From Candidatus Sabulitectum sp. (lineage in GTDB: Bacteria; Fermentibacterota; Fermentibacteria; Fermentibacterales; JCC-6), in assembly GCA_036743055.1 (NCBI GenBank), contig DAINQE010000011.1, positions 5,516 through 57,652 of the forward strand: DNA of 52,137 bases, given 5' to 3'. The translations under genes and the position numbers were made by a program. The notes under the pieces were generated by a model. The model was not told where the DNA came from. It did no database searches and saw only the letters and a program-made list of their open reading frames with translations. Shown one piece after another: positions 29,152 through 45,173 of the stretch; position 1 is the first letter of the stretch, and each line of letters starts with the position of its first letter.

Positions 29152-29152
29152 C

Positions 29153-30094: not shown

Positions 30095-30107
30095 GATCCT
30101 CTCCCTT

Positions 30108-31079: not shown

Positions 31080-31847
31080 CTATTCCAACGGCTCGGCGGT
31101 GAAAACCACCGGGGTATGGTCCGACGGCTTTTCCCAACCCCTGGGCTCCCGGTCTATCTCGCAGCCCTTTATCAGATTTGCAGCCGACTCGGTGGCCAGC
31201 ACGAGGTCCAGCCTCATCCCCCGATTCCTTCTCCATGCCGCCGCCCTGTAATCCCACCAGCTGTATGCCTTGCCCTCGGGGTGATACTCCCTGAAAACAT
31301 CCCTGAACCCATTCTGAAGGAAGCCCTTTATCCTCTCCCTCTCCAGGGGATGGTAGCACACCGTGCCATCCTGTTCCTCAGGGGAGTGGGTGTCGTCGGG
31401 CCCCGGCGCTACGTTGAAGTCGCCCAGGATAACCACCGGTTCACTGAAGGAGAGCGCGTGATCAAGAAGGCGCTGAAGGTACTCCAGCTTCTCCAGGAAC
31501 CTGGGGTTCTCCACCTCGCCCCCGTTGGGCACATAGGTGTTTATCACCCGTATGCCCCGGAACAGCCCTGAGATCATCCTTCTCTGCTCCGGGAGGAACC
31601 CGTCGAATTCCATTTCAAGGTCACTGACCGGCTCCCTTGAAATGAAGGCCACACCGTTCCACCGGGGCTGACCGTTTACGAAGGAGGTGTATCCCAGGTC
31701 GGCAAGTTCTCCATGGGGGAACTGTGACTCGTCGGCCTTCAGCTCCTGAACGCAGAGCAGGTCCGGCTCCCTCTCCCGCAGCCAGCGCAGGACCACGGGC
31801 AGACGGGCCCTGATGGAGTTAACGTTCCAGGTTGCTATCCTGACCAT
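31080..31847 (-). CDS. xthA: Exodeoxyribonuclease III
   Basis: 255 aa. IATWNVNSIRAR, LCVQELK, GDFNVAP and SDHTPV are hallmark ExoIII/APE motifs. Confidence 0.92.
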   Translation of the reverse strand: MVRIATWNVNSIRARLPVVLRWLREREPDLLCVQELKADESQFPHGELADLGYTSFVNGQPRWNGVAFISREPVSDLEMEFDGFLPEQRRMISGLFRGIRVINTYVPNGGEVENPRFLEKLEYLQRLLDHALSFSEPVVILGDFNVAPGPDDTHSPEEQDGTVCYHPLERERIKGFLQNGFRDVFREYHPEGKAYSWWDYRAAAWRRNRGMRLDLVLATESAANLIKGCEIDREPRGWEKPSDHTPVVFTAEPLE

Positions 31848-31913
31848 TGCCGACCTCCCGTCTCGGTGGAACCGGATTTCCCAACGGATGCAAAATACAG
31901 TAAATTAACGGTT

Positions 31914-33555: not shown

Positions 33556-34464
33556 ATGAGGCTTGAGATCAGCCAGCCACCTCTTAACACTTCTCTCATG
33601 GGGGTCGTGAGCGGGGTATGCAGGTTCTTCGGCAGGGAGATCCCCGAGCCCGTCCTCTTCGGGAGGACAGGGCACGCCTTCATCATGAACATCAGCGAGG
33701 ACCTGTGCCCCAGCGGACCCTACCTGTGGGACATGAAACCATTCATTTCGCTTCTGGAGAACTCCGGGTTCGTGATGAACTTCCACGGGTTTTTCAACGA
33801 GAAAAGCACCCGGGAAGAACGGAGCAAGCTGGAAGGCAAACTCAGGGATGAGCTTGACAGGGGGCATCCGTGCTCCATCCTGAACATGGACAATCAGATA
33901 ATCTCAGGGTACGACGGTACCGGTTTCTTCTGCGTTCAGCCCTGGGAGTGTGATTTTCCACCGGGCAGGCTCAGCTTCGGCTCGTGGGAGGAGATATCGA
34001 CTGAGATACATGCATGTTTTTACAGCTTCCATGAAGTGGAGCCCCTGGAACCGGCTTTCTGTATCCAGAGAAGCCTGCTCTTCGCCCTGGACCAGCTTCA
34101 TGGAAACCCTGTCCGTCCTGTGGGGGACTCAGTGTCCGGCATCGGAGCGTACGCTACCTGGAAGACCGGAGTTCTTGGCGGGCACGGGGAAAGCCACGGC
34201 AACTGGTGGAACGGAACCGTATGGTCGGAATGCAGAAGAATGGCTTCCGGGTACTTCGGAGAGATAGCCGAGGCCTATCCTGGATGCTCCGCTGCCTCGA
34301 GGGAACTCTCTTCCCTTTACGGAGAGGTGGCCGGAAGGCTGGAAGGCGTGGCCCTCAAGGAAACCCCCGCCGAAAAGAAGGTGGAGCTGCTGGACGAGGC
34401 AGCAACCCTGGAGGGCAGGACTGGGGATCTCCTCGAAGAGCTTGCGGAAACCATAGAAACTTAG
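33556..34464 (+). CDS. Hypothetical protein (possibly BtrH_N/DUF4872-like papain-fold relative)
   Basis: 302 aa, RBS GGGAGGAAAG upstream, protein-like composition. A weak resemblance (..EPVLFGRTGHAFIM..) to BtrH-like proteins is only an impression. Confidence 0.6.
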   Translation: MRLEISQPPLNTSLMGVVSGVCRFFGREIPEPVLFGRTGHAFIMNISEDLCPSGPYLWDMKPFISLLENSGFVMNFHGFFNEKSTREERSKLEGKLRDELDRGHPCSILNMDNQIISGYDGTGFFCVQPWECDFPPGRLSFGSWEEISTEIHACFYSFHEVEPLEPAFCIQRSLLFALDQLHGNPVRPVGDSVSGIGAYATWKTGVLGGHGESHGNWWNGTVWSECRRMASGYFGEIAEAYPGCSAASRELSSLYGEVAGRLEGVALKETPAEKKVELLDEAATLEGRTGDLLEELAETIET

Positions 34465-34473
34465 GGGGACTGT

Positions 34474-35064
34474 ATGAAGGTACTGCTGATCAACGGCAGC
34501 CCCAGGCGGAACGGCAACACGGACATGATGCTGGATGCCCTGAGGGAACACCTGGAAAATGGCGGAGCCGTCGTGGAGAGGTTTCAGCTTGGGGGAGAGG
34601 CCATCAGGGGCTGCGCCGCCTGCGGGGAGTGCGGCAGAAGGCTGGACCGCAGGTGCGCCATAGATGAGGACCTGATGAACGACCTTATAGAGAAGATGAT
34701 CGACTCCCATGCGGTGGTGATAGGCACTCCTACCTACTTCGGGAACGTTTCCACGGAAGTGAAGGCCCTGATCGACAGGGCCGGGCTGGTGGGGATGGTA
34801 AACAGGCGGATGTTCAGAAGGAAGATAGGTGCAGCTGTGGTGGCGGTTCGAAGGGCCGGGTCAGTGGAGGCGTTCCATGCGGTGAATAACTTTTTCCACC
34901 TGAACCAGATGATCATTCCGGGAAGCGGATACTGGACAGTGGGGTACGGCCTGAGACCCGGAGAGGTGGCAGGGGATTCCGAGGGGCTTTCCACCCTGGG
35001 CGCCCTGGCGGCCAACATCCTCTGGCTGGGGGCGAAGATCGGGGAAGATGGTGATAAACCTTGA
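34474..35064 (+). CDS. Flavodoxin-like NAD(P)H-dependent FMN reductase family protein
   Basis: MKVLLINGSPRRNGNT N-terminus and GTPTYFGNVS motif are typical of the FMN_red / iron-sulfur flavoprotein family. Internal CAACGECGRRLDRRC cluster. Confidence 0.8.
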   Translation: MKVLLINGSPRRNGNTDMMLDALREHLENGGAVVERFQLGGEAIRGCAACGECGRRLDRRCAIDEDLMNDLIEKMIDSHAVVIGTPTYFGNVSTEVKALIDRAGLVGMVNRRMFRRKIGAAVVAVRRAGSVEAFHAVNNFFHLNQMIIPGSGYWTVGYGLRPGEVAGDSEGLSTLGALAANILWLGAKIGEDGDKP

Positions 35065-36212
35065 GGTACAGGAAATTCGGCAGCCTCGACTGGAACGTTT
35101 CCGCCCTGGGATTCGGCATCATGCGGATGCCGGTGATAGACGGTGAATACGGCAGAATAGACGAAGAAGCCGGGCTGAAGCTGGTTCGGGAAGCGATAGA
35201 CTCAGGGGTGAACTACCTGGATACGGCGTGGAACTACCATGGGGAAGGCAGCGAAGGATTTCTGGGAAGGGTCCTCGCCGACGGCTACAGGGAGAAGGTG
35301 CGGATCGCCACGAAGATGCCCTGCTGGCTCGTGGAGAAGCCCGACGACCTGGACAGGTACTTCGATATCCAGATGGAGCGGCTTCAGGTGGACCGTATCG
35401 ACTTCTATCTCCTCCATGCACTTCAGAGGGACTGGTGGGAGAGGATGAAGGAAGCCGGCTTCCGCCGGTGGGCGGAGAAGAAGCTGGCGGACGGAGTGAT
35501 AGGAAACCTGGGATTCTCTTTCCACGGAATGTTTCCCCTTTTTCGAAGGATAATCGAGGAGTACGATCTCTGGACGATGACCATGGTCCAGCACAACTAC
35601 ATGGACGCGGAAAGGGAGGCTGGAACAGCCGGCATAAGGCTCGCCGCTGATAAAGGTCTTGCGGTGGTGGCCATGGAACCCCTCAGGGGGGGGCAGCTGG
35701 CCAAGGAACCTCCCCCGGGGATAGGTGAGATTTTCCGGAAAGCCGTTCCAGGGAGATCGATCGCTGAATGGGGTTTGAGGTGGCTCTGGGACCAGAGCGA
35801 GATATCCATGGTCCTCAGCGGAATGAGCGCTCCTGAACAGGTGCGGGAGAATATCAGGATCGCATGCGAGACAGGTCCTGGATGCATGGAAGATTCCGAA
35901 AAGGAAGTGATCGAAGCGGTTAAGCTCGCCTATGAAGAAAGGGCGGGAATTGGCTGCACCTTCTGCGGCTACTGCCTCCCATGCCCCATGGGAGCAGCCA
36001 TACCATGGATTTTCGAGTATTACAACATTTCTTCCATGTACGATGACATCCGCAGGGCCAGGGGTCACTATGCAATGCTCGACCAGTCGAACAGGGGTGA
36101 TGTATGCACATCCTGCGGCAGGTGCGTTGAGCACTGCCCCCAGCACCTGGACATTCCATCTCTTCTTGCGGAATGCCACTCTCTCCTGAAGCCTGCGGAT
36201 CCTCCGGTCTGA
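35061..36212 (+). CDS. Aldo/keto reductase with C-terminal 4Fe-4S ferredoxin-type domain
   Basis: TTG 35061 start overlaps the upstream stop (TTGA). MRYRKFGSLDWNVSALGFG, DTAWNYH and IDFYLLH AKR motifs. C-terminal CTFCGYCLPCP and CTSCGRCVEHCP. Confidence 0.82.
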   Translation: MRYRKFGSLDWNVSALGFGIMRMPVIDGEYGRIDEEAGLKLVREAIDSGVNYLDTAWNYHGEGSEGFLGRVLADGYREKVRIATKMPCWLVEKPDDLDRYFDIQMERLQVDRIDFYLLHALQRDWWERMKEAGFRRWAEKKLADGVIGNLGFSFHGMFPLFRRIIEEYDLWTMTMVQHNYMDAEREAGTAGIRLAADKGLAVVAMEPLRGGQLAKEPPPGIGEIFRKAVPGRSIAEWGLRWLWDQSEISMVLSGMSAPEQVRENIRIACETGPGCMEDSEKEVIEAVKLAYEERAGIGCTFCGYCLPCPMGAAIPWIFEYYNISSMYDDIRRARGHYAMLDQSNRGDVCTSCGRCVEHCPQHLDIPSLLAECHSLLKPADPPV

Positions 36213-36275
36213 TTTGACGTTCCGGAACCTCCGGCTATAATCAACTTCGGCACGGCACCCTGGAAAGGAGAGACC

Positions 36276-37055
36276 ATGAGAATTGGTACCTGGTTCTTCA
36301 TTGCTATGCTCCTGCCGTTCGGTGCAGCTGCGGAGCAGGCTGTCCAGACTGGATCGGTTGAGGTTGACGCCTTCACGGGCATGGATGTTTCAGTGGATAA
36401 CATCAGCGGGACCATTCATGTAGAGGGAACCGACACTGAACTGGTCCAGGCCTCCTGGACGGTGAACTGCGGTTCCGAAGAGGAACTCGAAGCTCTGGAG
36501 GTAATCGTCTCCACCGAGAGCGGATTGAGCCTCTCAGTGGATTACAGCGATGACTGGGACAGGTGCGTGGACTGCAGCGTGGACTTCGTTCTTACCGTGC
36601 CCCGGAGTATTGCAATGAACTACAGCCTTGACGCGGTCAATGGAGATCTGGAATTGATCGAAGCGCGGGGAACCGCCGGGCTGGCTCTGGTGAACGGCGG
36701 GATAACCCTGACCGATTTCCAGGGCGGAGCCAGCATTGATGTGGTGAACGGAGAGGTAAGCGCAGCCGGATCACCGGGGTTATACACCGTGGATATGGTG
36801 AACGGCGCGCTGGACCTGGTCCTGGAGCAGCTTGAAGGGGACCTGTCGGTGGAGACTGTGAACGCATCGGTAACCGTGGAGCTTCTGACTGAAGCGCAGG
36901 TAATGGCGGAGACCATGTCAGGGGAGATCGACATAGACCCTGAGCATAGGCCCGAGATGGAACAGGGGATCGCTTCGAGGTCCGCCTCCTTCGGCGACGG
37001 GGGAGAGGTAAGTATTTTCATCAGCACCCTTAACGGTGACATCGAGATAAAGTAG
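36276..37055 (+). CDS. DUF4097-like beta-strand-repeat (putative adhesin) protein, secreted
   Basis: Signal peptide MRIGTWFFIAMLLPFGAAA. Repeated VNG-x-I/L...G-D-L motifs (VNGDLELI, VNGGITLT, VNGEVSAA, VNGALDLV, LNGDIEIK). Confidence 0.7.
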   Translation: MRIGTWFFIAMLLPFGAAAEQAVQTGSVEVDAFTGMDVSVDNISGTIHVEGTDTELVQASWTVNCGSEEELEALEVIVSTESGLSLSVDYSDDWDRCVDCSVDFVLTVPRSIAMNYSLDAVNGDLELIEARGTAGLALVNGGITLTDFQGGASIDVVNGEVSAAGSPGLYTVDMVNGALDLVLEQLEGDLSVETVNASVTVELLTEAQVMAETMSGEIDIDPEHRPEMEQGIASRSASFGDGGEVSIFISTLNGDIEIK

Positions 37056-37076
37056 AGAAAAAGCCGCAACAAGAAG

Positions 37077-37100
37077 AAGGCCGGGTTTGACCCCGGCCTT
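37077..37100. terminator. Hairpin between convergent genes (terminator-like)
   Basis: 9-bp stem AAGGCCGGG / CCCGGCCTT with a 6-nt loop, in the 64-nt gap between the stops at 37055 (+) and 37120 (-). The flanking U-tract is weak. Confidence 0.5.
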
Positions 37101-37119
37101 CTCCTGCAGCCAGATCGGC

Positions 37120-37779
37120 TTAGAAGGTAGCCTTGATGGATGCCCAGGTGGCGGGCTGAAGGGACTGGCCTTCGGCAACCACGATGTCGTCCCAGTAAAT
37201 GGGATCTCCGCCGTCTGAGAAGATGTCAAGGGCGTCGAACTCGAGAATGCCGCTGGTGGGGGACCAGGGGATGGTCTCCACGAAGGTGCCGTTGTAGTAG
37301 ATGTTCTGTGAGTTGGCTCCGAGCATTATCTCGACCTTCACCTCTACCCACTGGTCGTCGATGATGTCAACCACGCCGGATCCCTCGGTGACCATCATCT
37401 GTCCGATCTCGTTGTCGAACTTCAGCTGAAGGGCCCAGTCGCTGCTGGCTCCCTCGTAGTAGGTGAGAAGTATGAAGAACTGATCACCCGTTGCGGTGGA
37501 GGGGATGTAGTGCCAGGCGCTTATTTCCCAGTTGCCCTCGGTGATGTTGAACTCCTGGACAACATCGGATGTGGATATGGGCATGAGGGAATGGGGCGAA
37601 CTCTGGAACTGCACGCCGGTGACATAGGCGTCGTAGGCTGGATTGTCGTCCCAGCAGGTCCATCCGCCCTGGCCATAGATGCCGGATCCCGAGTCGTAGG
37701 AGTCGAAGTTGTCCGACCACTGCGCAGCGGCTGCCGATGCCATTATCAGCGCAAGGCCGAAAACAAGACCTTTTCTCAT
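37120..37779 (-). CDS. Secreted jelly-roll/LamG-like protein with C-terminal tail ATWASIKATF
   Basis: Signal peptide MRKGLVFGLALIMASAAAAQ. Body DNFDSYDSG...GGWTCWDD...WVEVKVEI looks concanavalin/LamG-like. The last 9 residues match the tail of the 9748-11521 triplet. Confidence 0.78.
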   Translation of the reverse strand: MRKGLVFGLALIMASAAAAQWSDNFDSYDSGSGIYGQGGWTCWDDNPAYDAYVTGVQFQSSPHSLMPISTSDVVQEFNITEGNWEISAWHYIPSTATGDQFFILLTYYEGASSDWALQLKFDNEIGQMMVTEGSGVVDIIDDQWVEVKVEIMLGANSQNIYYNGTFVETIPWSPTSGILEFDALDIFSDGGDPIYWDDIVVAEGQSLQPATWASIKATF

Positions 37780-37823
37780 AGTATCTCCTTCCTCTTTCGG
37801 ACACTCTCCGTGTCGTGTTTCTG

Positions 37824-37852
37824 TTAATAGCTCAAAGCCCTCAACAGGTCAA
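37824..37852 (-). promoter_or_regulatory. Candidate sigma-70-type promoter of 37120-37779
   Basis: On the minus strand: TTGACC, 17 nt spacer, TATTAA, about 45 nt upstream of ATG 37779. Confidence 0.5.
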
Positions 37853-37881
37853 GGGGCGTGCGACTAAACGCATATTCACCG

Positions 37882-37909
37882 TTGCAGCGGGTTTGCCCTG
37901 TGTTATACT
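37882..37909 (+). promoter_or_regulatory. Candidate sigma-70-type promoter of the 37932 gene
   Basis: TTGCAG (37882-37887), 16 nt spacer, TATACT (37904-37909). Confidence 0.35.
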
Positions 37910-37931
37910 CGAACCCCGAGGATCCTGGAGG

Positions 37932-38336
37932 GTGTCATTGACCGAGAAATTCCGCATTGCCGTTGATGCCGACGAGAGGCTGTTGCGCATTTCCGTACGG
38001 GGCTTCTGGTCCACGGAGGAAGCCATGGAGTACCGGCGCAGGCTCGAAGAGGCAATGGATCTCCTGGGTTCGACCGAACCCTGGAACGTTATAGCCGATG
38101 TCCGTCTGTTTCCCGTGCAGCCTGCACCCGTTCAGAAGATACACCGGGAACTGATGCAGCAGGCCCTTCTCAGGGGAATGGACAGGTCCGCCAACATCGT
38201 GGGCGGTCCCCTGACCAGGATACAGATCGAAGAACTGGCCTCCACCGCATGGCCGGAGAAGGGTCACTTTGAGTACTTCCTCAATGAGGGTGAAGCCGAT
38301 TCCTGGCTCAGACGGACTGAGAGCGGTTTTGCTTAA
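37932..38336 (+). CDS. SpoIIAA/STAS-like small protein (hypothetical)
   Basis: No ATG. GTG 37932 or TTG 37938 follows GGAGG. Sequence FRIAVDADERLLRISVRGFWSTEEAMEY...VIADVR resembles STAS-like (SpoIIAA-like) domains. Confidence 0.5.
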   Translation: MSLTEKFRIAVDADERLLRISVRGFWSTEEAMEYRRRLEEAMDLLGSTEPWNVIADVRLFPVQPAPVQKIHRELMQQALLRGMDRSANIVGGPLTRIQIEELASTAWPEKGHFEYFLNEGEADSWLRRTESGFA

Positions 38337-38751
38337 AGGAAAGGCTTCGTCCCTCTTCGGGCTTGCCGGACTTCCCCGCAGGGCGGCTGAGGTTCTGGAG
38401 AGTGAAGGCTTGCTGTTCCTGGAGGAGGGCGTGAGGATAACGGTGGTCTACCATCTTTTCAAGGCAAGTGGCAGGTACTTCAGGAACAAGAGGGAGACAG
38501 GCTGGGGTTCGCTGGGCATCTCCCGAAGCAGGATGGTGGGCTACGCCTTCAGGAAGAAGCTGCTTCACATACCCTTCGAAGGCCCCGAATCACAGGCGGT
38601 GAAGTTTTCCCTGGTTGACCGGAGGGTCCTTGTCATGGCTGTGGACCCCTCCGTTGCCGATCCGGGAAGGGAGGGCCGCATCGAGGTGAGGTACCATACC
38701 CGAAGAGCGCCTGAGGCCTACGGTCTTATCAGGGAGCTCACCGGTCGCTGA
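38329..38751 (+). CDS. Hypothetical protein
   Basis: The ORF has protein-like composition but no ATG until late. A TTG 38329 start overlapping the upstream stop is a guess. 14-nt convergent overlap with the PLD gene. Confidence 0.4.
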   Translation: MLKGKASSLFGLAGLPRRAAEVLESEGLLFLEEGVRITVVYHLFKASGRYFRNKRETGWGSLGISRSRMVGYAFRKKLLHIPFEGPESQAVKFSLVDRRVLVMAVDPSVADPGREGRIEVRYHTRRAPEAYGLIRELTGR

Positions 38752-39265
38752 CCGGCTCCGGACAGACCTTCCTCATTCTGCAGTCTCCGCAGCGGTTCCC
38801 CATCCATATGCCGTCGAAGTATTCCTCCATTTCGGCTATCACCGATGGGTCTTCCGTATAAAAACCTGTCTCGAAGTTTCTCTTGCCCGGGGACCTGGCC
38901 CCCATTCCGGCACCGGTGAGATTAGCGCTGCCACAGTAGCCCCCTCTGCCGTCCACAAGTATCAGTTTGGAGTGATTTCTGGGACAGTGAAGCATCTCGA
39001 ACCCCGCCCCGGTCCTCAGCTCCAGAGAATCATTCAGTGTACGGATGAATGGAGCGGATGGTACCCCTCCGTGCAGTATCCTGAAGGATACACCGCTTCT
39101 CTGGAGCTTCTCGAAATGGCGGAGCAGGGGCTTTCTCCTTTTCCCTGGCTGCGGGAGGTGAAGGTCTTTAAGGTTGGCGGTGGCTATCCACACCCTTTCC
39201 GCCGCTTTCATCACAAAACCCTCAAGGATCAGGGAGAAGTGCTCTTCGTCCTTTACGAACCTCAT
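38738..39265 (-). CDS. Single-HKD phospholipase D superfamily protein (Nuc-like nuclease or phospholipid enzyme) with C-terminal Cys cluster
   Basis: Perfect HxK-x4-D-x6-GSxN motif HSKLILVDGRGGYCGSAN (38924-38974). 175 aa. C-terminus CGDCRMRKVCP. ATGA overlap with the upstream gene. Confidence 0.82.
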   Translation of the reverse strand: MRFVKDEEHFSLILEGFVMKAAERVWIATANLKDLHLPQPGKRRKPLLRHFEKLQRSGVSFRILHGGVPSAPFIRTLNDSLELRTGAGFEMLHCPRNHSKLILVDGRGGYCGSANLTGAGMGARSPGKRNFETGFYTEDPSVIAEMEEYFDGIWMGNRCGDCRMRKVCPEPVSDR

Positions 39266-41151
39266 TTCATCCTTTTCGATTCCCTGTAGAGGGATTTCCT
39301 TTCCCGGGCAATTGTTGACGAGACCACATTTGCGGACATGCCGGCGCTCCCCGCGAAGCGCTCTAGAAGGGCTTTCTCCGACTGGTCAAGCTCTCCATCG
39401 GCAAGGGACATCCTTACCATTGCCCGGAGCAGCTCCATGGACTCTGAACCGGTGGATGGAGGTTGAACCGGGGAGTCCTCCGAAGAGGCCGTTGCAATTA
39501 TGGAGCCGAGCCTTTCTTCGGAGATCCCCCTCTGTGCGGCGAAGTGTTCCAGCATTTCCATTTCCTGTGGATCCAGCCTGCCGTCGGAATGCATCATCCG
39601 GGCCATGGCTATCAGCAGGATGTCCGCGGAGACAGGCATGGCGCCGGAAACCGGGGAGATCCTTGCGGAGTTCACCCTGGCCCCGGTGAAGGGCATGATC
39701 CCCTCCAGCACCCAGGAGCCGCTTCCGTCGTTCAGCGGGCGGCCGCAGTAGGCGCAGGAACCGCCCTCCTCACCTGTGTAAGGGGCGCCGCAGCCGTGAC
39801 AGTGGGCGCTGTGAAGACCGGCTGAGGCCAGTGTCTTCACACCGTGTTTCCTCATCAGGGTGAAAAGGTTGGGCCGTATTGTCTTCGGACCCACTGAGGA
39901 TACCCTGCCGTTACCGTCTATCCAGGCGTTGGCGGCGGACCATTTTACAAGGACATGGACCCTGTCGAACCCGGTTCCAACGGCGATCTCCTGAACCTCC
40001 ACCGCTCCCACGGCGGCGTCGCTGAAGAAGAGATGGGAATCTCCTTCAGAGGTCTGGGAGATCCGCTCTTCCAGGGAATCGGCGAAGTTCCCGGCGGCCA
40101 CCTTTCGCACAGGGTCCGCGGAATTGTCGAAGTAGCTCTTTATGTATCTCCAGAATACAACCGAAGCGGTATCCTCTATGGTCTGCAGGTTGAATCCCGG
40201 GTCCTCAGCAGTGATGTCTTCGTAGCCTGGTATCCTCTCCGGCGAAGAAGAAGTGCTCCACTCCACCGACTGGGTTATCTCCGCGAGTACCCAGTCGTAC
40301 TCGCCGCTGGTCACAACAGCGTCGCAGTATCCGCAGTTACCGGAATCGTTGAGCTCCAGGGGGGCTCCGCAGTTGGGGCAGACCCCCTCCACCAGGCCCC
40401 TGCCGCTGGTGGTGACCGCACCGGGCCGCCTGAGGAAACTCCAGTACTCAACGAAGGTGCCGGTATAGTTCTCCCTTATCTTCCTCCCTGACTCCAGGCT
40501 CACGTCATAGTCCCTGGCGCTGGCGGTTATCTTCACGTGCATCGTGTCGAAATGCCTGTCGGACTCCACCGATACCACTTCGGCTGAGAGGACTTGAACG
40601 TCTTCCATCAGGTTCCTGATCCCCTGCTTTTTCTGCATGTGCATCTGCAGGGAGAACCTCTCGTTGACCCCGTCGCTGATGAAACGCCTTACCGAGGCGA
40701 TGTCCTGTTCGGACCAGCCCTTCTGGACCTCGATGAACGCCCTGCGGACCATGGCCAGGAATCCCTCTTCGGAGAACTCCGGATCCCGGGTCATGAGATC
40801 GGCCAGCGCCGTTCGCTTCGCTTCCGGTGCCTGCCTCTGATTCAGGTTCCTGTTCCCGGCCTTCTGTATGGCGGCGTACTGGCCCTTGACCCGTTTCTTC
40901 TTCACGATGATGGATATCACCACAATGGCTATCACAAGTGGTATGCCGATACATGGCTGCTCTATGCAGAGCCTTATGAGGAAGTAAACGAGGATTCCCA
41001 GCCCGTCGCCTCCTCCGCCACCGGATGAGGACCCTCCGCCGCCTCCATAGCTCTGACCACCCCCGGCCCGGGCCATTGCCTCTCCGGCAAGAAGGGAAAG
41101 GATTACAAGGACAGCGACCGGCAGGAAGCGACCCTTCCAGGGCAGGTTCAT
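39262..41151 (-). CDS. Membrane protein: signal/Gly-rich/TM N-terminus, two Tim44-like (SnoaL-fold) domains each followed by a zinc ribbon, C-terminal TerB-like repeats
   Basis: Start ATG 41151 (MNLPWKG) after GGAGGTGCAAC. ARAGGGQSYGGGGGSSSGGGGG plus a TM as in bacterial Tim44-like proteins. CPNCGAPL..CGYCDA and CHGCGAPY..CAYCGRPL. C-terminus ARMMHSDGRLDPQEMEML and VRMSLADGELDQSEKALL (TerB-like). Confidence 0.72.
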   Translation of the reverse strand: MNLPWKGRFLPVAVLVILSLLAGEAMARAGGGQSYGGGGGSSSGGGGGDGLGILVYFLIRLCIEQPCIGIPLVIAIVVISIIVKKKRVKGQYAAIQKAGNRNLNQRQAPEAKRTALADLMTRDPEFSEEGFLAMVRRAFIEVQKGWSEQDIASVRRFISDGVNERFSLQMHMQKKQGIRNLMEDVQVLSAEVVSVESDRHFDTMHVKITASARDYDVSLESGRKIRENYTGTFVEYWSFLRRPGAVTTSGRGLVEGVCPNCGAPLELNDSGNCGYCDAVVTSGEYDWVLAEITQSVEWSTSSSPERIPGYEDITAEDPGFNLQTIEDTASVVFWRYIKSYFDNSADPVRKVAAGNFADSLEERISQTSEGDSHLFFSDAAVGAVEVQEIAVGTGFDRVHVLVKWSAANAWIDGNGRVSSVGPKTIRPNLFTLMRKHGVKTLASAGLHSAHCHGCGAPYTGEEGGSCAYCGRPLNDGSGSWVLEGIMPFTGARVNSARISPVSGAMPVSADILLIAMARMMHSDGRLDPQEMEMLEHFAAQRGISEERLGSIIATASSEDSPVQPPSTGSESMELLRAMVRMSLADGELDQSEKALLERFAGSAGMSANVVSSTIARERKSLYRESKRMK

Positions 41152-41187
41152 GTTGCACCTCCAGGGCTGGCGTATATTATTCATTCG

Positions 41188-42267
41188 ATGAAAGAAGTCT
41201 ATCCAGACAGGAGCGGGATGTCCATATCGAAAGTACCGGACGGGTTCGCAGACCAGCTTTGTCGAATGGACCCTCCTGTGACCCTCGTTGTCAACGACGG
41301 CACCAGACCTTCACCAGCTCAAGTCCTGAAGTCTCTCTTACCGTTCCTGGGAGCATCCTTCAGGATAATCTTCGCAACCGGCGCTCACAGACCGCCTGAT
41401 CCAGTGGAGAGGAGGAGGATTCTGGGAGCAGTGGCAGACATGGGCATACAGGAAACGAGCAATGACTGCGACGACGGTTCCCAAGTTTTCATCGGAACCA
41501 CATCCAGGGGAACCCCGGTGGAACTTCATCCCTGGCTTCTGGAGGGTTCCGTTCTTGGTATCAATACCGTCGAGCCCCATTATTTCGCCGGTTTTACCGG
41601 AGGGAGAAAGTCATTCCTGCCCGGCTGCGCCAGCAGGAAGACCATAACCTCAAATCATTTTCTCGCGTGTTTCCCCGGATCGGCTGCCGGCCGCCTCCAC
41701 GGGAACCCGGTTCACCTGGACATGGAGGAGGGCGCGGGTCTACTCTATGAAAGGACACCCTGCCTGATGGTCAACGGGACCTCCATGGGGGAGGTGTTCT
41801 CTGGACTGCCCGGTGAATCCTTCGTGAAGGCAGCGGAGAAAGCCGCAGTTATTCACGGGGTTCCGGTGGAAGAACCCTTCAGCTCACTGACGGTAACCCC
41901 TGGGGGACCCCTTGAAGGAAGCCTCTATCAGTCACTGAAGGCGGTTTTCCTCTGGGCTGACGCCGTTGAGACCGGCGGGAGCCTTGTTCTGGAATCCCCA
42001 TGCAATGAGGGTCTGGGGGCTCCGCAGATGGACAGGATCCTGAAACTTTCCGCAGGCATCCTGAACCCGCCAAAGGACAGATCGGACTACCTACTGGGGG
42101 ATCACGCGGCGCTGAGGCTCTCCTCAATAAGAAGAAGGATCCGCCTCTCCCTGGAAACCGATTTTCGGTTCGATGACTACGGATTCCCGGAACGGGCCGG
42201 TTCAGGCGGGGCCAGGCTTGAGGGAGCTGGTTTTCTTTTTCCGGTGATGAGGGGAACCGATGCATAA
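41188..42267 (+). CDS. LarA-like (DUF2088, nickel-pincer-nucleotide-dependent racemase/epimerase superfamily) protein
   Basis: EPHYFAGFTGGRKSFLPG and HGNPVH motifs as in the lactate racemase family. The start is uncertain: ATG 41188 is only 36 nt from the divergent start at 41151; the alternative is ATG 41218. Confidence 0.65.
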   Translation: MKEVYPDRSGMSISKVPDGFADQLCRMDPPVTLVVNDGTRPSPAQVLKSLLPFLGASFRIIFATGAHRPPDPVERRRILGAVADMGIQETSNDCDDGSQVFIGTTSRGTPVELHPWLLEGSVLGINTVEPHYFAGFTGGRKSFLPGCASRKTITSNHFLACFPGSAAGRLHGNPVHLDMEEGAGLLYERTPCLMVNGTSMGEVFSGLPGESFVKAAEKAAVIHGVPVEEPFSSLTVTPGGPLEGSLYQSLKAVFLWADAVETGGSLVLESPCNEGLGAPQMDRILKLSAGILNPPKDRSDYLLGDHAALRLSSIRRRIRLSLETDFRFDDYGFPERAGSGGARLEGAGFLFPVMRGTDA

Positions 42268-43645
42268 CACTTTCAGGAGACGGCTGATATTCATCGTTCT
42301 TGCAGCGGTGTCCATATGGGTCTTCCTCCTTTACACCCATTCCCTGGTTGAAAGGCTGGAGAGCGCTTCAAGAAGGAACTGCGAAACGATCGCCAGACTC
42401 TGGGCGGGGGTTCAGTACCCCCTCAGCATGATCGGGAATCCTTCAGGGATAATGTCCTGCACCGTGTGCGGATCTCCGGGGGAGTTCCATGGACAGGAGA
42501 GTGAAGAGGTTTTCTGCAGTGTCTGCGGTGACACCACTCTCTTCATCAGGACGGCGAGGCTTCTTCCGGATGAGAGGGAGGACATCATCGTTTCCACCAG
42601 GAGGCTCTTCGCTGATGTGGTCAACAGGCTTGATTTCCCCACGGTTTTTTCCGACAGGTACGGTCGTCCACAGATAGTTGACGGAGAGGTGACCGATGGC
42701 TTCGACCGCGAGAGGATGGAATCGATCAGACATAGGATGGAGCATCTGAGCAGGGAGAACGAACCTGTACCTCTCCTTGTGAGAGGTGATACCATAGGGT
42801 ACCTTTATTACGGCACCTCAGGGCTTGACTCGGAGATGAGCATGATGCCTTTCCTGGAACTGGGGCTGCTTCTTGCGGCGTCGGCGGTGATCTTCATCTT
42901 CCTCCGGTCGGAGGTCGCCGCCGAGAGGAACATGTCCTGGGTCGGTTTCGCCAGGGAGACCGCCCATCAGCTGAGCACTCCGCTCTCCTCGCTCATGGGG
43001 TGGCTGCAGCTTCTGGAAGATGACCGGAAGGTCATGTCGAATCCGGAAACCGCCGAGGCGGTGGCCCACATGAACGCCGACGTGGAGAGGCTGGCCAGCA
43101 TTGCCGCCAGGTACGGGCAGATGGGGAGGGAGCCGAAGCTCACCCCGCTTCGAGTCTGGGACATAGTTGAGGAAACGGTTGATTATTTCAGCCTTCGAAA
43201 GGGGCTTCTTGGTTCCGGGGTCATCCTGGAGAAGAGGAACTCATGCCCTGATGCGAGGATAATGGGGAACGGAGTACTCCTGGGCTGGGTTCTGGAGAAC
43301 CTTATCAAGAATGCCGTTGCCGCCTGTGCTTCCAGCCCTGGAGGTGGGCTCATAAAGATAGAGTGCTCCCAGGGGGAAGGAGGAAGGGACGACCTTGAAC
43401 TCAGGGTTACCGACAACGGTACTGGGATTCCCTATTCTGACCAGGGGAAGGTCTTCAATGCGGGCTTTACCACAAGGAAAGGCGGCTGGGGTCTGGGACT
43501 GTCCCTTGCGAAGAGGATAGTGGAGGAGTATCACGGAGGAAACATCAGGCTTGCCTCCAGCGTTCCCGGAGAGGGAACATCCTTCGTTATCACACTGCCG
43601 GGACTGGGAGGTGATGAAGCTGATAACAATTCTTTGGGTGGATGA
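42260..43645 (+). CDS. Sensor histidine kinase (PorY-like by context) with CxxC-N15-CxxC in the extracytoplasmic loop
   Basis: Two TM segments. H-box ETAHQLSTPLSSLMGW. N/G boxes LIKNAV, DNGTGIP, GGWGLGL. 8-nt overlap with the upstream gene. Confidence 0.85.
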   Translation: MHNTFRRRLIFIVLAAVSIWVFLLYTHSLVERLESASRRNCETIARLWAGVQYPLSMIGNPSGIMSCTVCGSPGEFHGQESEEVFCSVCGDTTLFIRTARLLPDEREDIIVSTRRLFADVVNRLDFPTVFSDRYGRPQIVDGEVTDGFDRERMESIRHRMEHLSRENEPVPLLVRGDTIGYLYYGTSGLDSEMSMMPFLELGLLLAASAVIFIFLRSEVAAERNMSWVGFARETAHQLSTPLSSLMGWLQLLEDDRKVMSNPETAEAVAHMNADVERLASIAARYGQMGREPKLTPLRVWDIVEETVDYFSLRKGLLGSGVILEKRNSCPDARIMGNGVLLGWVLENLIKNAVAACASSPGGGLIKIECSQGEGGRDDLELRVTDNGTGIPYSDQGKVFNAGFTTRKGGWGLGLSLAKRIVEEYHGGNIRLASSVPGEGTSFVITLPGLGGDEADNNSLGG

Positions 43646-45173
43646 TGAAATAGACCATCTCAAGGCACATATCCGTTTCCTGGAGAAGCGTTCATACGAG
43701 GTGATACAGGCCAGGAGCGGAAGAGAGGCCCTGGATATACTGAGAACGACCAGGGTGGACCTGGTGCTGATGGATCAGATGATGGTGGGCATGGATGGTC
43801 TGGAAACCGTTCACTTGATCAGGAAGAACTACAGGGACCTCCCTGTGGTGATGGTCACCCAGAGTGAGGAAGAGGAGCTGATGGACAGGGCCCTCTCCGG
43901 TACAATAGCCGATTTCCTGACCAAACCGGTGAATCCCAGCCAGATACTCCTTGTGGTAAAGAGACTGCTGGATTCCGGAAGGCTCCGGGTGGACAGGGCC
44001 GCCACCGAGGTCATCTCCGAAACACAGAAACTCAGGCTCAGTCGTGACAACAGCCTGGAAGACTGGATCCACCTTTTCAAGACCATAATGGACAGGGACA
44101 TTTCCCTGGGCGGTGATCTCAACGAAAAGCTGCAGGGAATGCAGGGCGGAGCCCTGGGAGAGGTGGAAGCAGACTTTTCCAGGTTCATCGAGAACAACTA
44201 CAGGGACTGGCTCGAATCACCGGACAATGCGCCTGTGATGGCCCATAACGTACTCGGGAGGAAGGTGGTGCCCGAACTCCTGAAGGGGTCCGGCGAGGTG
44301 GTGTTCCTGGTTATGGACTGTATGCGTTACGATCAGTGGCTCCTGATGATGAAGTCCATGGAGCAGTGGTTTCACAGGGAGTCGGATTTCATGATTGCCG
44401 GCATCCCATCAGCAACTCCATACAGCCGGAACTCCATTTTCAGCGGGCTGGTTCCCAGGGACATATGGCGTTTTTACAGGACAAGATGGGTGGAGAAGTA
44501 CGGCTGCCCCGGGCTGAACAGCTACGAACAGCTGCTGATGCGCGACGGGCTGGTGAGGAACGGCTTCAGCAGGGGGCAGAACGCCGTTTACGCAAAGGTT
44601 TCCAACAGCTCGGAGGGCGAGAATGTTCGTCGGGGGCTTTCCCATTTCCTCAAGGACGGCTTCATGGCCCTCGTGGTGAACTTCATCGACCACCTCACCC
44701 ACGGCAGGTCGGAACTGGACCTGATAAGGGACATCGCCCCGGATGTTCCTTCCTTCAGAAGGCTGGCTAAGGAGTGGTTCGATCACTCATTCCTTCTGAA
44801 GATGCTCAAGACCCTCAGCGCAAGGGGCGCAACGGTGATAGTAACAAGCGATCACGGCTCGGTTCTCGCCGGGAGGATAGCATTCATCCGCGGAGCAAGA
44901 GGTATGTCCCACAGCGTGAGGTACCGTTTCGGCCATTCCCTGTTCGCCGATCCCAAGAACGCCCTGGTGGTTCACAGCCCTGCCCAGTGGGGTCTTCCGG
45001 ATGACCATCCCAGGAAGTCCTATCTTTTCGCCAGGGATGATTACCTTCTGATGCAGCAGGGAATGAACCGGGACGACAGGTATAAGTTCAAGGGCTCGTT
45101 CCAGCACGGGGGTCTTTCCATGGAAGAGATGCTGGTGCCATGCGACATCCTGAGACCCAAGAAGTTCAGGTGA
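43614..45173 (+). CDS. porX: PorX-type response regulator: receiver domain fused to PglZ/alkaline-phosphatase-superfamily domain
   Basis: Start ATG 43614 after GGGAGG. ILWVDDEIDHLKAHIRFLEKRSY...PVVMVTQSEEEELMDRAL...FLTKPVNPSQIL closely follows the PorX N-terminus as I remember it. About 519 aa matches PorX length. C-terminal VTSDHGS... is PglZ-like. Confidence 0.82.
   Translation: MKLITILWVDDEIDHLKAHIRFLEKRSYEVIQARSGREALDILRTTRVDLVLMDQMMVGMDGLETVHLIRKNYRDLPVVMVTQSEEEELMDRALSGTIADFLTKPVNPSQILLVVKRLLDSGRLRVDRAATEVISETQKLRLSRDNSLEDWIHLFKTIMDRDISLGGDLNEKLQGMQGGALGEVEADFSRFIENNYRDWLESPDNAPVMAHNVLGRKVVPELLKGSGEVVFLVMDCMRYDQWLLMMKSMEQWFHRESDFMIAGIPSATPYSRNSIFSGLVPRDIWRFYRTRWVEKYGCPGLNSYEQLLMRDGLVRNGFSRGQNAVYAKVSNSSEGENVRRGLSHFLKDGFMALVVNFIDHLTHGRSELDLIRDIAPDVPSFRRLAKEWFDHSFLLKMLKTLSARGATVIVTSDHGSVLAGRIAFIRGARGMSHSVRYRFGHSLFADPKNALVVHSPAQWGLPDDHPRKSYLFARDDYLLMQQGMNRDDRYKFKGSFQHGGLSMEEMLVPCDILRPKKFR

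What the first reader, a model, noticed from the sequence alone, without database searches (positions are those of the whole stretch)
38738..41151. Translationally coupled pair: Tim44-like/zinc-ribbon/TerB membrane protein + single-HKD PLD enzyme
The upstream gene (about 629 aa) has an architecture I do not know as a described unit. It starts with a signal-like segment, a poly-Gly/Ser tract and a TM helix. Two Tim44-like lipid-facing domains follow, each ending in a CxxC...CxxC zinc ribbon, and then two TerB-like repeats (DG-x-LD-x-x-E). Its stop overlaps (ATGA, 39262-39265) the start of a 175-aa protein. That protein has a textbook HxK-x4-D-x6-GSxN motif and a C-terminal Cys cluster, i.e. a Nuc/Zucchini-size PLD that must dimerise. 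TerB domains and PLD nucleases are both recurrent components of phage-defence systems (established for Shango and several PLD-containing systems). A membrane-anchored sensor coupled to a nuclease or phospholipase effector is a typical abortive-infection layout. The alternative reading is membrane-lipid remodelling: the Tim44 fold binds cardiolipin-rich membranes, and PLD enzymes include phospholipid synthases and hydrolases.
Basis: partly seen in the sequence, partly recalled or inferred. Interest (0 to 1): 0.7.

Follow-up and report, generated by a model that had tools for sequence, protein, structure and literature searches.

The report
Tim44-TerB membrane protein with coupled PLD
Two real overlapping genes, one for a widespread but unstudied membrane protein and one for a small phospholipase-D-type enzyme, are joined in only one bacterial lineage, and nothing points to an anti-phage system.

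Summary
On the minus strand, a 629-aa gene (39262-41151) overlaps by ATGA a 175-aa gene (38738-39265). The first encodes a signal-like segment, a Gly/Ser tract, a TM helix, two Tim44/NTF2-like modules each with a CxxC...CxxC ribbon, and a TerB/DUF533-like C-terminus. The second encodes a single-HKD PLD-fold protein with four invariant Cys.

The pairing is confined to one Sabulitectum-like clade of Fermentibacterota: 15/15 loci, whole neighbourhood syntenic, paired PLDs forming one group in a rough tree. Sister Fermentibacterota keep the large gene in the same slot without a PLD. So do its homologues in several other phyla. The PLD belongs to a very large stand-alone family (at least 7958 clusters). 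Of 89 loci from that family, 51 had 2 kb or more upstream, and none carried a Tim44/TerB neighbour or any recurrent neighbour.

No defence-model hit reaches a curated cut-off. The flanks are housekeeping genes. The PLD has no phage hit and one full-length plasmid hit.

Verdict: a lineage-specific operon junction between two independent, uncharacterised housekeeping-type families. Membrane recruitment of the PLD is possible but untested. Interest is low to moderate.

The parts
39262..41151 (-). Gene for a 629-aa bitopic inner-membrane protein (Tim44-like x2 with zinc ribbons, plus TerB-like C-terminus). The stop TGA is at 39262-39264.
   Evidence: ORF. Pfam. Homologues of about 629 aa. AF2 pLDDT 82. 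Foldseek hits to Tim44/mL45.
41158..41162 (-). GGAGG Shine-Dalgarno-like sequence 6 nt upstream of the ATG at 41151.
   Evidence: Sequence read. Supports the 629-aa start over the ATG at 41184.
41071..41151 (-). Residues 1-27: signal-peptide-like or first hydrophobic helix ending in AMA|RAGGG.
   Evidence: Hydropathy. R28, A29 and G30-32 are invariant or nearly so.
40999..41070 (-). Residues 28-51: RAGGGQSYGGGGGSSSGGGGGDG Gly/Ser tract, inferred to face the periplasm.
   Evidence: Sequence. pLDDT below 50 in the model. Conserved motif.
40900..40998 (-). Residues 52-84: hydrophobic TM segment followed by KKKRVK (positive-inside).
   Evidence: Hydropathy. Helix 49-103 in the model.
40261..40824 (-). 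Residues about 110-297: Tim44/NTF2-like module 1 with an inserted Cys4 zinc ribbon (C258, C261, C273, C276; nt 40324-40380).
   Evidence: Pfam Tim44 E 1.5e-20. Invariant Cys. Foldseek 2cw9/3qk9/2fxt.
39691..40239 (-). Residues about 305-487: divergent Tim44-like module 2 with a Cys4 zinc ribbon (C451, C454, C466, C469; nt 39745-39801).
   Evidence: Internal duplication, BLASTP E 9e-15. Pfam Tim44 E 0.075. Strand/helix pattern in the model.
39265..39639 (-). Residues 505-629: TerB/DUF533 (DjlA-N/YebE-like) helical domain with two DGxxDxxE motifs.
   Evidence: Pfam TerB 6e-10 and DUF533 2e-10 on the isolated segment. PDB 2ou3, E 8e-4. Invariant D523, G524, E530, D585, G586 and E592.
39262..39265 (-). 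ATGA stop/start overlap between the two genes.
   Evidence: An (A/G)TGA overlap is kept in 13 of 15 related loci. There is a 10-nt overlap in L009, and ATGA is present in the frameshifted L014.
38738..39265 (-). Gene for a 175-aa cytosolic single-HKD PLD-superfamily protein.
   Evidence: ORF. PLDc_2 52.7 bits. AF2 pLDDT 87. Foldseek PLD fold. No hydrophobic segment (maximum KD19 1.07).
38921..38974 (-). HKD motif: H98, K100, D105, G112, S113, N115.
   Evidence: Invariant in 52 homologues.
38762..38791 (-). C-terminal Cys cluster C159, C162, C168. With C94 (nt 38984-38986) it forms a probable Cys4 zinc site.
   Evidence: All four Cys are invariant in 52 homologues. Zinc binding is inferred, not shown.
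41176..41224 (-). Two overlapping sigma-70-like hexamer pairs upstream of the large gene, inside the divergent Lar_N coding sequence. Weak evidence only.
   Evidence: Consensus scan: 3 sites found against 0.9 expected.

Best explanation
This is a lineage-specific operon junction, not a dedicated two-gene system.

The upstream gene encodes a vertically inherited, housekeeping-type inner-membrane protein. It has a cleavable or first helix, a short Gly-rich external loop and one TM helix. Its large cytoplasmic part is built from a tandem duplication of a Tim44/NTF2-like module, each carrying an inserted Cys4 zinc ribbon, followed by a TerB/DjlA-N/YebE-like helical domain. By analogy with Tim44, mL45, DjlA and YebE, it most likely sits on the cytoplasmic face of the membrane as a lipid-binding scaffold or envelope-state sensor.

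The downstream gene encodes a soluble, basic, probably zinc-stabilised single-HKD PLD-fold phosphodiesterase. It would need to form a homodimer to build one active site. It belongs to a very large stand-alone family.

In the ancestor of one Sabulitectum-like clade, the PLD gene landed directly behind the membrane-protein gene. It arrived as part of about 6.4 kb that is absent from sister lineages. It has since been co-transcribed and translationally coupled through the 4-nt overlap.

My committed guess for the consequence is that the PLD is made next to the Tim44/TerB scaffold and may be loosely recruited by it to the inner leaflet, so that its phosphodiesterase activity is used at the membrane. 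Its substrate is undecided; I estimate nucleic acid at about 45% and phospholipid head group at about 35%. The partnership is facultative, because each protein functions alone in most lineages.

Shown: the genes, domains, overlap, distribution and synteny. Inferred: topology, zinc binding, dimerisation, co-transcription, any recruitment, and the substrate.
For: Genes, domains and overlap.

The pairing occurs only in the Sabulitectum/Fermentibacteraceae clade. In 15 of 15 loci the PLD is directly downstream, and the whole TsaB / RR-PglZ / HK / Lar_N neighbourhood is syntenic. The overlap is conserved. The paired PLDs form a single group in a midpoint-rooted NJ tree without support values, consistent with one acquisition.

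Other Fermentibacterota orthologues (48-51% identity) sit in the same slot, divergent from HK / RR-PglZ / TsaE / TsaB. They are followed by Peptidase_C10, PMT_2 or xth, not by a PLD. The window keeps PMT_2 and xth 5.7 to 7 kb further on, which shows an insertion.

Homologues of the large protein in Planctomycetota, Verrucomicrobiota, Bacteroidota, Myxococcota, Bdellovibrionales, Elusimicrobiota and others have no PLD nearby. Their neighbours are housekeeping genes. Three of these loci have an adjacent SPFH/Band_7_1 protein, which hints at a role in membrane organisation.

The PLD family has at least 7958 clusters at E<=1e-10, all about 171-216 aa. Of 89 loci, 51 have 2 kb or more upstream. None has a Tim44/TerB neighbour, and no neighbour family recurs in more than 4 loci. 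Unpaired members sampled in Raymondbacteria, Kiritimatiellales S94, Leptospiraceae and another Fermentibacteria genome sit in varied non-defence contexts.

There is no defence signal. The PLD has no phage hit and one full-length plasmid hit.

The large family has 1010 representatives of 50%-identity clusters at E<=1e-30, mostly full length.
Against: The start/stop overlap and the adjacency survive in all 15 loci, although genes just downstream of the PLD have been rearranged (orf160 is displaced or absent in L005, L007, L009, L012 and L013). This could reflect selection for a real partnership.

All paired loci appear to trace to one event, so inertia and selection cannot be separated.

TerB-like domains and PLD nucleases do occur in defence systems. 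Shango contains a TerB-like protein (PMC10250203). The PADLOC models used date from 2023.

No interaction prediction could be run, and no expression or biochemical data are available. Many sampled contigs are short.
Confidence: 0.6

Rival explanations
1. Dedicated membrane-lipid remodelling module. The Tim44-like/TerB protein binds anionic, cardiolipin-rich membrane and physically docks the PLD dimer. The PLD then hydrolyses or transphosphatidylates phospholipid head groups. This would be a bacterial analogue of the originally proposed MitoPLD activity.
For: The Tim44 C-terminal fold is confirmed. Tim44 is known to bind cardiolipin-containing membranes (established knowledge, not tested here). 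The PLD lacks a membrane anchor of its own and is basic, with pI 9.1 and a family median of 8.9. Translational coupling is conserved in the clade. A two-HKD bacterial phospholipase D (7e0m) is the top sequence and fold hit.
Against: Both families exist independently almost everywhere. The cardiolipin synthase model scores 12.8 bits against 290. As far as I recall (not tested here), the characterised small single-HKD proteins Nuc, NucT, Zucchini and BfiI are all nucleases. The lowest-rmsd single-HKD fold match is Zucchini (2.8-2.9 A). No lipid-metabolism genes are in the operon.
Confidence: 0.2
2. Pure hitch-hiking. The PLD is a cytosolic nucleic-acid or small-molecule phosphodiesterase with no functional link to the membrane protein. 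The overlap only reflects gene packing, and the adjacency is phylogenetic inertia from a single insertion.
For: The paired PLDs form a single group in the tree, within a clade where the entire neighbourhood is syntenic. PLD family members sit tightly behind unrelated genes elsewhere, for example a 1-nt gap after an Impact_N gene in L036. There is no recurrent neighbour in 89 loci. A weak nuclease flavour comes from RE_NgoFVII at E 0.028 and from NucT, Zucchini and Nuc fold hits.
Against: The overlap is kept, including ATG to GTG changes that preserve it, while downstream genes moved. Translational coupling usually accompanies matched expression of the two products.
Confidence: 0.3
3. Two-gene abortive-infection or defence system. 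The TerB/Tim44 membrane sensor detects phage-induced envelope perturbation and releases or activates the PLD nuclease or phospholipase.
For: TerB-like proteins occur in Shango (PMC10250203). PLD domains occur in DISARM (DrmC) and Mokosh. There is weak PADLOC similarity: MkoB 2e-8, DrmC 1.6e-6, PDC-S48 1e-4.
Against: The hits are generic domain similarity well below curated cut-offs (DrmC 27.5 bits against 133). No partner genes of any known system are in the flanks. The context is core and syntenic rather than a variable island. The sensor is conserved across a phylum without the effector, and the effector family of at least 7958 clusters occurs without the sensor. There are no phage or PHROG hits and one full-length plasmid hit. 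No tRNA or mobile-element marks lie next to the pair.
Confidence: 0.05

Closest known systems
Tim44 C-terminal domain family (mitochondrial Tim44, mL45/Mba1; alphaproteobacterial TimA)
   Same: The Pfam Tim44 domain scores above its cut-off (74 bits). The NTF2-like fold matches 2cw9, 3qk9, 2fxt and mL45. The domain is membrane-proximal, following a TM helix.
   Different: Two tandem copies, each with an inserted Cys4 zinc ribbon, plus a TerB-like domain. The protein is not a TimA orthologue (NF033778 37.5 bits against 200; NF033779 43 against 80). It occurs in Fermentibacterota, PVC, Bacteroidota and others rather than in alphaproteobacteria.
TerB / DUF533 (YebE) / DjlA N-terminal domain proteins
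   Same: The C-terminal 125 residues match TerB and DUF533 and PDB 2ou3. The DGxxDxxE motifs are conserved. The domain faces the cytoplasm on an inner-membrane protein.
   Different: There is no J domain (DjlA model 23 bits against 162). The gene is not in a ter operon. The domain is fused to Tim44-like modules. No paper in the searchable library mentions both Tim44 and TerB.
Small single-HKD PLD-family nucleases (Nuc, NucT, Zucchini/MitoPLD)
   Same: About 150-200 aa with one HxK..D..GSxN motif, which implies a homodimer. Foldseek TM is 0.55-0.68, with the lowest rmsd to mouse Zucchini. Zucchini also binds zinc (from memory).
   Different: No signal peptide (unlike Nuc and NucT) and no TM anchor (unlike Zucchini). 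NucT models score 11 bits against 211-297. The family has its own invariant WIATA, TGAGxGA and RNFE motifs and a C94/C159/C162/C168 cluster. Its activity is unknown.
Defence PLD proteins (DISARM DrmC, Mokosh MkoB) and the TerB-containing Shango system
   Same: They share PLD or TerB domains.
   Different: The scores are far below family cut-offs, and no DrmA/B/methylase, MkoA/C or Shango ATPase/helicase genes are nearby. The context is syntenic core genome.
SPFH/Band_7_1 (YdjI-type) membrane-stress modules
   Same: Homologues of the large protein in three other lineages lie next to a Band_7_1 protein that has a Gly-rich segment plus a zinc-ribbon, GYF or SHOCT tail. B. subtilis YdjI links PspA to the membrane (PMC8581546). 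This suggests a shared theme of membrane organisation or stress.
   Different: No Band_7_1 gene is in this window or in the Fermentibacterota loci. The assignment of YdjI to PF13421 is from memory.

Membership tests
PLD superfamily (HKD) | HxK(x)4D(x)6GSxN catalytic motif | tested here: met
   H98, K100, D105, G112, S113 and N115 are invariant in 52 homologues. PLDc_2 52.7 bits against 27; PLDc 22.4 against 21.9.
PLD superfamily (HKD) | PLD alpha/beta fold | tested here: met
   AF2 pLDDT 87. 112 PDB matches with E<=1e-3; all 50 listed have PLD-type folds.
PLD superfamily (HKD) | Two HKD halves form one active site (homodimer for single-HKD proteins) | not testable with these tools
   There is only one HKD per chain. 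Dimerisation is inferred from Nuc and Zucchini precedent.
Nuc/NucT periplasmic nucleases | Family HMM at cut-off, and a signal peptide | tested here: not met
   NucT models 11.4-11.5 bits against 211-297. No N-terminal hydrophobic segment.
Zucchini/MitoPLD | N-terminal membrane anchor plus single HKD plus ssRNA nuclease activity | tested here: not met
   No TM segment. Fold similarity only, at 21-22% identity. Activity is not testable.
DISARM DrmC | DrmC HMM at cut-off, and neighbouring drmA/drmB/methylase genes | tested here: not met
   NF038319 27.5 bits against 133. No such neighbours.
Mokosh MkoB | Large protein of about 600 aa with a PLD at its C-terminus, plus MkoA/MkoC helicase partners | tested here: not met
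   The match covers only the PLD part of the model (positions 470-593 of 610, E 2e-8). The protein is 175 aa. No helicase is nearby.
Shango | TerB-like protein with an adjacent ATPase and helicase (PMC10250203) | tested here: not met
   A TerB-like domain is present, but no ATPase or helicase is in the flanks.
Phospholipid synthases of the PLD type (Cls, PssA) | Two HKD motifs per chain and a family HMM at cut-off | tested here: not met
   Single HKD. TIGR04265 12.8 bits against 290.
Tim44-like domain family (PF04280) | Pfam model at gathering score, and an NTF2-like fold | tested here: met
   74.2 bits against 29.6. Foldseek hits to Tim44 C-terminal domains with probability 1.00.
TimA (alphaproteobacterial Tim44 homologue) | Equivalog HMM NF033778 at cut-off | tested here: not met
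   37.5 bits against 200.
TerB (PF05099) | Pfam model at gathering score | tested here: met
   33.3 bits against 24.4 on the whole protein; 39.9 bits on the isolated C-terminus.
DjlA co-chaperone | TerB-like N-domain plus a C-terminal J domain | tested here: not met
   NF006948 23 bits against 162, and no DnaJ domain hit.
   Paired in 15 of 15 loci of one clade only. 0 of 3 sister Fermentibacterota loci, 0 of 12 distant genome loci, 0 of 3 loci at about 40% identity, and 0 of 51 PLD loci with 2 kb or more upstream.

The most novel reading that the evidence does not exclude
The tandem-Tim44-like / zinc-ribbon / TerB protein is a conserved bacterial inner-membrane scaffold of a kind not yet studied. 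In the Sabulitectum clade it has captured a Zucchini-sized, zinc-binding PLD as a physically docked client. This would give a bacterial counterpart of a membrane-tethered MitoPLD/Zucchini-type phosphodiesterase, acting on cardiolipin or on membrane-proximal RNA. It could also inform how Tim44-like and DjlA-N-like modules were used before the mitochondrial import motor arose.
Probability: 0.12. Interest if true: 0.6.

Novelty: new member of a known kind. Interest (0 to 1): 0.25.

Why it matters
As a system it matters little. The pairing appears to be a single lineage-specific event between two independent genes, and it should not be added to lists of candidate defence systems.

The parts have modest value. 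First, the membrane-protein family is large: 1010 representatives of 50%-identity clusters at E<=1e-30, across Fermentibacterota, PVC, Bacteroidota, Elusimicrobiota and others. It has duplicated Tim44-like modules and a TerB/DjlA-N-like domain, and I could find no functional study of it. Second, the stand-alone 175-aa Cys4 single-HKD PLD family is very large (at least 7958 clusters) and its substrate is unknown. The natural operon in this clade is a convenient starting point for testing whether the two cooperate at the membrane.

Tried and rejected
1. Defence assignment. PADLOC, NCBIfam and PHROGs on both proteins and ten neighbours gave only generic or sub-threshold hits.

2. A "phosphodiesterase slot" idea. 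In Aegiribacteria-type loci an Exo_endo_phos gene follows the large gene. I asked whether PLD and EEP enzymes replace each other there. I rejected this. The EEP protein is an ExoIII/Xth-like gene that the window also has at 31080-31847, with the same three paralogous downstream genes. It is therefore ancestral synteny split by an insertion.

3. A conserved partner for the PLD. Clustering 395 neighbour ORFs from 89 loci gave no family present in more than 4 loci.

4. A conserved partner for the large protein across phyla. The neighbours were mixed housekeeping genes. A 4HBT thioesterase lies upstream in four loci (three Flavobacteriales, one labelled Competibacteraceae), and Band_7_1 is adjacent in three other loci. 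These are suggestive only.

5. Mobile-element association. There is no phage match, one full-length plasmid match (a 317-kb Segatella replicon) and five IMG/VR contigs, none with the large protein.

6. Sequence search of the PDB. It found only 7e0m (E 0.0017) for the PLD and 2ou3 for the TerB part.

7. Literature. Later searches found no paper with both Tim44 and TerB, or with TimA, TimB and Tim44. One guessed PMC id was wrong.

8. Rfam and tRNA scans found nothing near the pair.

9. A look-up of P0156, one of the closest unpaired relatives by sequence identity (46%), found no record.

Full report
**1. The observation**

Both ORFs are on the minus strand. The large one runs 39262-41184, which is 640 aa from the first in-frame ATG. 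The ATG at 41151 is preceded by GGAGG at a 6-nt spacing. Homologues cluster at 628-631 aa. The small ORF is 38738-39265 (175 aa). The junction is AGG ATG AAA TGA read in one frame and ATG AGG TTC in the other. This is the stated ATGA overlap at 39262-39265.

**2. Anatomy of the large protein**

- Pfam gives Tim44 (E 1.5e-20, 74 bits against 29.6) and TerB (33 bits against 24.4). DUF533 and the zinc-ribbon models are below threshold.
- Hydropathy shows a signal-like helix (9-27, ending AMA|RAGGG), a Gly/Ser tract, and a TM segment (about 52-84) followed by KKKRVK. I infer that the bulk of the protein is cytoplasmic.
- Residues about 110-300 and 300-490 are a duplication (BLASTP E 9e-15, 26% identity). 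Each copy ends in CxxC-x11-CxxC, and all eight Cys are invariant in 54 homologues. On its own, the second copy has Tim44 as its best Pfam hit, but only at E 0.075.
- The AF2 model built on the 54-sequence alignment has pLDDT 82 and pTM 0.78. Its best PDB fold matches are Tim44 C-terminal domains (2cw9, 3qk9, 2fxt), the TIM23-bound Tim44 (9j9b) and mitoribosomal mL45.
- The C-terminal 125 residues match TerB and DUF533 (E 6e-10 and 2e-10) and PDB 2ou3. The two DGxxDxxE motifs are conserved.

**3. Anatomy of the small protein**

- PLDc_2 scores 52.7 bits against 27.
- In 52 homologues the invariant positions are WIATA26-30, K33, C94, R96, H98, K100, D105, G112, S113, N115, T117-G120, G122, R129, N130, E132, G156, C159, C162 and C168. 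The protein therefore has one textbook HKD motif, a family-specific Gly-rich loop (TGAGxGA) and four invariant Cys. I read the four Cys as a structural zinc site; this is an inference.
- The AF2 model (pLDDT 87, pTM 0.85) matches the PLD superfamily broadly. Hits include bacterial PLD 7e0m, NucT, mouse and fly Zucchini, Nuc, vaccinia F13, PLD1/2 and PLD3. TM is 0.5-0.68, with no specific nearest family. The lowest rmsd among single-HKD proteins is to mouse Zucchini (2.8-2.9 A, 21-22% identity).
- There is no hydrophobic segment. The pI is 9.1, and the family median is 8.9.

**4. Whether the pair is a conserved unit**

A scan of one genome per GTDB species gave 27 loci.

*Paired loci.* Fifteen loci carry the PLD directly downstream. 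These are labelled Candidatus Sabulitectum, Fermentibacteraceae or Fermentibacteria, plus unnamed MAGs. In them the large protein is 62-94% identical to the window's and the PLD 51-89%. The complete neighbourhood is also syntenic: TsaB, response regulator-PglZ, histidine kinase and Lar_N on one side, and orf160, orf173 and orf219 on the other. The stop/start overlap is (A/G)TGA in 13 loci. It is 10 nt in L009. The ATGA sequence is present in L014, whose assembly is frameshifted.

*Unpaired loci for the large gene.*
- Three other Fermentibacterota orthologues (48-51% identity: P0040, P0079, P0042) occupy the same slot, divergent from HK / RR-PglZ / TsaE / TsaB. They are followed by a C10 peptidase, by PMT_2 then xth, or by xth, with no PLD.
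- The window itself has PMT_2 at 31866-33536 and xth at 31080-31847, followed by the same three paralogous genes. About 6.4 kb, including the PLD, was therefore inserted between the large gene and PMT_2 in this clade.
- The twelve distant genome loci (Planctomycetota, Verrucomicrobiota, Bacteroidota, Competibacteraceae, Myxococcota, Bdellovibrionales) have no PLD within the flanks. Their neighbours are housekeeping genes.
- Loci at about 40% identity, from Elusimicrobiota and two unnamed lineages, also have no PLD. The Kiritimatiellota contig ends just after the gene.

*Unpaired loci for the PLD.*
- A profile search saturated at 7958 clusters with E<=1e-10. All 120 listed are 171-216 aa. Those with names are from Planctomycetota, Opitutales, Pontiellaceae, Fibrobacterota, Chitinispirillaceae and others.
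- Four looked-up members at 40-45% identity are stand-alone genes in varied contexts.
- Eighty metagenome loci, five IMG/VR loci and those four make 89 loci, of which 51 have 2 kb or more upstream. None encodes a homologue of the large protein. No neighbour family recurs in more than four loci.
- In a rough NJ tree (midpoint-rooted, no support values) the paired PLDs form a single group next to a group that includes an unpaired Raymondbacteria gene. They lie apart from another Fermentibacteria PLD.

The pairing is therefore consistent with a single event in a clade with strong synteny.

**5. The defence reading**

- PADLOC gives only generic similarity: MkoB 2e-8 restricted to its PLD part, DrmC 1.6e-6 or weaker, and PDC-S48 1e-4 over TerB.
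- NCBIfam DrmC scores 27.5 bits against a cut-off of 133.
- Ten neighbours give no PADLOC hit apart from the PglZ domain of a receiver-PglZ response regulator. That gene sits beside its histidine kinase and is conserved with TsaE/TsaB across the phylum.
- PHROGs has nothing for the PLD. The phage collection has no match, and the plasmid collection has one full-length match.
- No tRNA or structured RNA lies near the pair.

Shango does contain a TerB-like protein, but together with an ATPase and a helicase (PMC10250203). Those are absent here.

**6. What the pair most likely is**

The large protein is a vertically inherited, widespread membrane protein. It has 3914 representatives of 50%-identity clusters at E<=1e-3 and 1010 at E<=1e-30, and most of the best 150 span the full length.

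Its parts resemble membrane-face scaffolds. From established knowledge, not tested here: Tim44 and mL45 bind the inner membrane, and the DjlA N-domain and YebE are TerB-like, inner-membrane-tethered, envelope-stress-linked proteins.

In three other lineages the homologue lies next to an SPFH/Band_7_1 protein with a Gly-rich segment and a zinc-ribbon, GYF or SHOCT tail. A B. subtilis SPFH protein, YdjI, links PspA to the membrane (PMC8581546). I therefore favour a role in membrane organisation or envelope-state sensing. This is inferred, with low to moderate confidence.

The PLD is a soluble HKD phosphodiesterase, probably zinc-stabilised and probably homodimeric, with an unknown substrate. Small single-HKD precedents are nucleases, while the top sequence and fold hit is a phospholipase. 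I estimate about 45% nucleic acid, 35% phospholipid and 20% other.

In this clade the two genes are almost certainly co-transcribed and translationally coupled. The overlap was kept while genes just downstream moved. Loose recruitment of the PLD to the membrane face is plausible. An obligate partnership is unlikely, because each gene works alone in most lineages.

**7. Comparison with known systems, and novelty**

The pair fails the membership tests for Nuc/NucT, Zucchini, DrmC, MkoB, Shango, Cls/Pss, TimA and DjlA. It passes only the superfamily and domain tests for PLD, Tim44-like and TerB. Both proteins are ordinary members of large uncharacterised families that databases already label "TIM44-like domain-containing protein" and "phospholipase D family protein". 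No paper in the searchable library mentions Tim44 together with TerB.

I rate the pair as a new member of known kinds, with low to moderate interest. The residual interest lies in the unstudied families rather than in the pair.

**8. Limits**

- Literature search failed repeatedly before partly recovering.
- No complex prediction was possible.
- Many metagenome loci are short.
- PADLOC-DB dates from 2023.
- Taxon labels are those of the depositors.

Noticed in passing
window 42260-45173 (+): A histidine kinase is followed by a response regulator whose output domain is PglZ (Pfam 4e-14; PADLOC PglZ 2.6e-21), with no other BREX genes. The pair is syntenic with TsaE/TsaB and the Tim44/TerB gene across Fermentibacterota. 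It resembles a PorY/PorX-type pair (from memory, not tested).
   Followed up: partly
window 28297-31028 (-), downstream of xth at 31080-31847 (-): Three tandem paralogous proteins of 284-337 aa with no Pfam hit. Their counterparts in L034 and L122 carry an N-terminal HEWGV motif (not checked in the window copies). They are conserved as 2-3 copies after xth in those Aegiribacteria-type loci.
   Followed up: partly
window 38269-38751 (+) and 37815-38336 (+): orf160 is convergent with the PLD gene and overlaps its 3' end by 14 nt. orf160 and orf173 are conserved in the clade but have no Pfam, PADLOC or PHROG hit. Their listed ORFs overlap each other by 68 nt, so the true orf160 start is probably later.
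   Followed up: partly
window 41151-41188: Only 36 nt separate the divergent starts of the Tim44/TerB gene and the Lar_N-domain gene (41188-42267). The promoter-like hexamers for the former lie inside the Lar_N coding sequence.
   Followed up: no
window 33556-39265: About 6.4 kb lies between the Tim44/TerB gene and PMT_2 here, but is absent from Aegiribacteria-type genomes. It holds a 302-aa ORF, FMN reductase, an aldo-keto reductase with a 4Fe-4S domain, a toast-rack DUF4097 protein, orf219, orf173, orf160 and the PLD. No integrase or tRNA lies at its edges.
   Followed up: partly
L123 7866-8921, L124 3829-4932, L125 7004-8020: SPFH/Band_7_1 proteins with a Gly-rich segment and zinc-ribbon, GYF or SHOCT tails lie next to homologues of the Tim44/TerB protein in three non-Fermentibacterota lineages. 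This may be the real conserved partner of that family.
   Followed up: partly
L020 1944-2327, L021 5224-5607, L022 5209-5592, L027 5439-5822: A 127-aa 4HBT (hotdog) thioesterase gene sits directly upstream of the Tim44/TerB homologue in three Flavobacteriales loci and one labelled Competibacteraceae.
   Followed up: no
L016 3607-5631 and 5758-7683: A Planctomycetaceae locus carries two tandem copies of the Tim44/zinc-ribbon/TerB family, preceded by a DUF350 membrane protein.
   Followed up: no
window 38738-39265 (PLD residues 117-125): The invariant loop T-G-A-G-x-G-A-(K/R) follows the GSxN motif. It has low confidence in the model (pLDDT about 60) and looks like a flexible phosphate-binding lid specific to this PLD family.
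   Followed up: no
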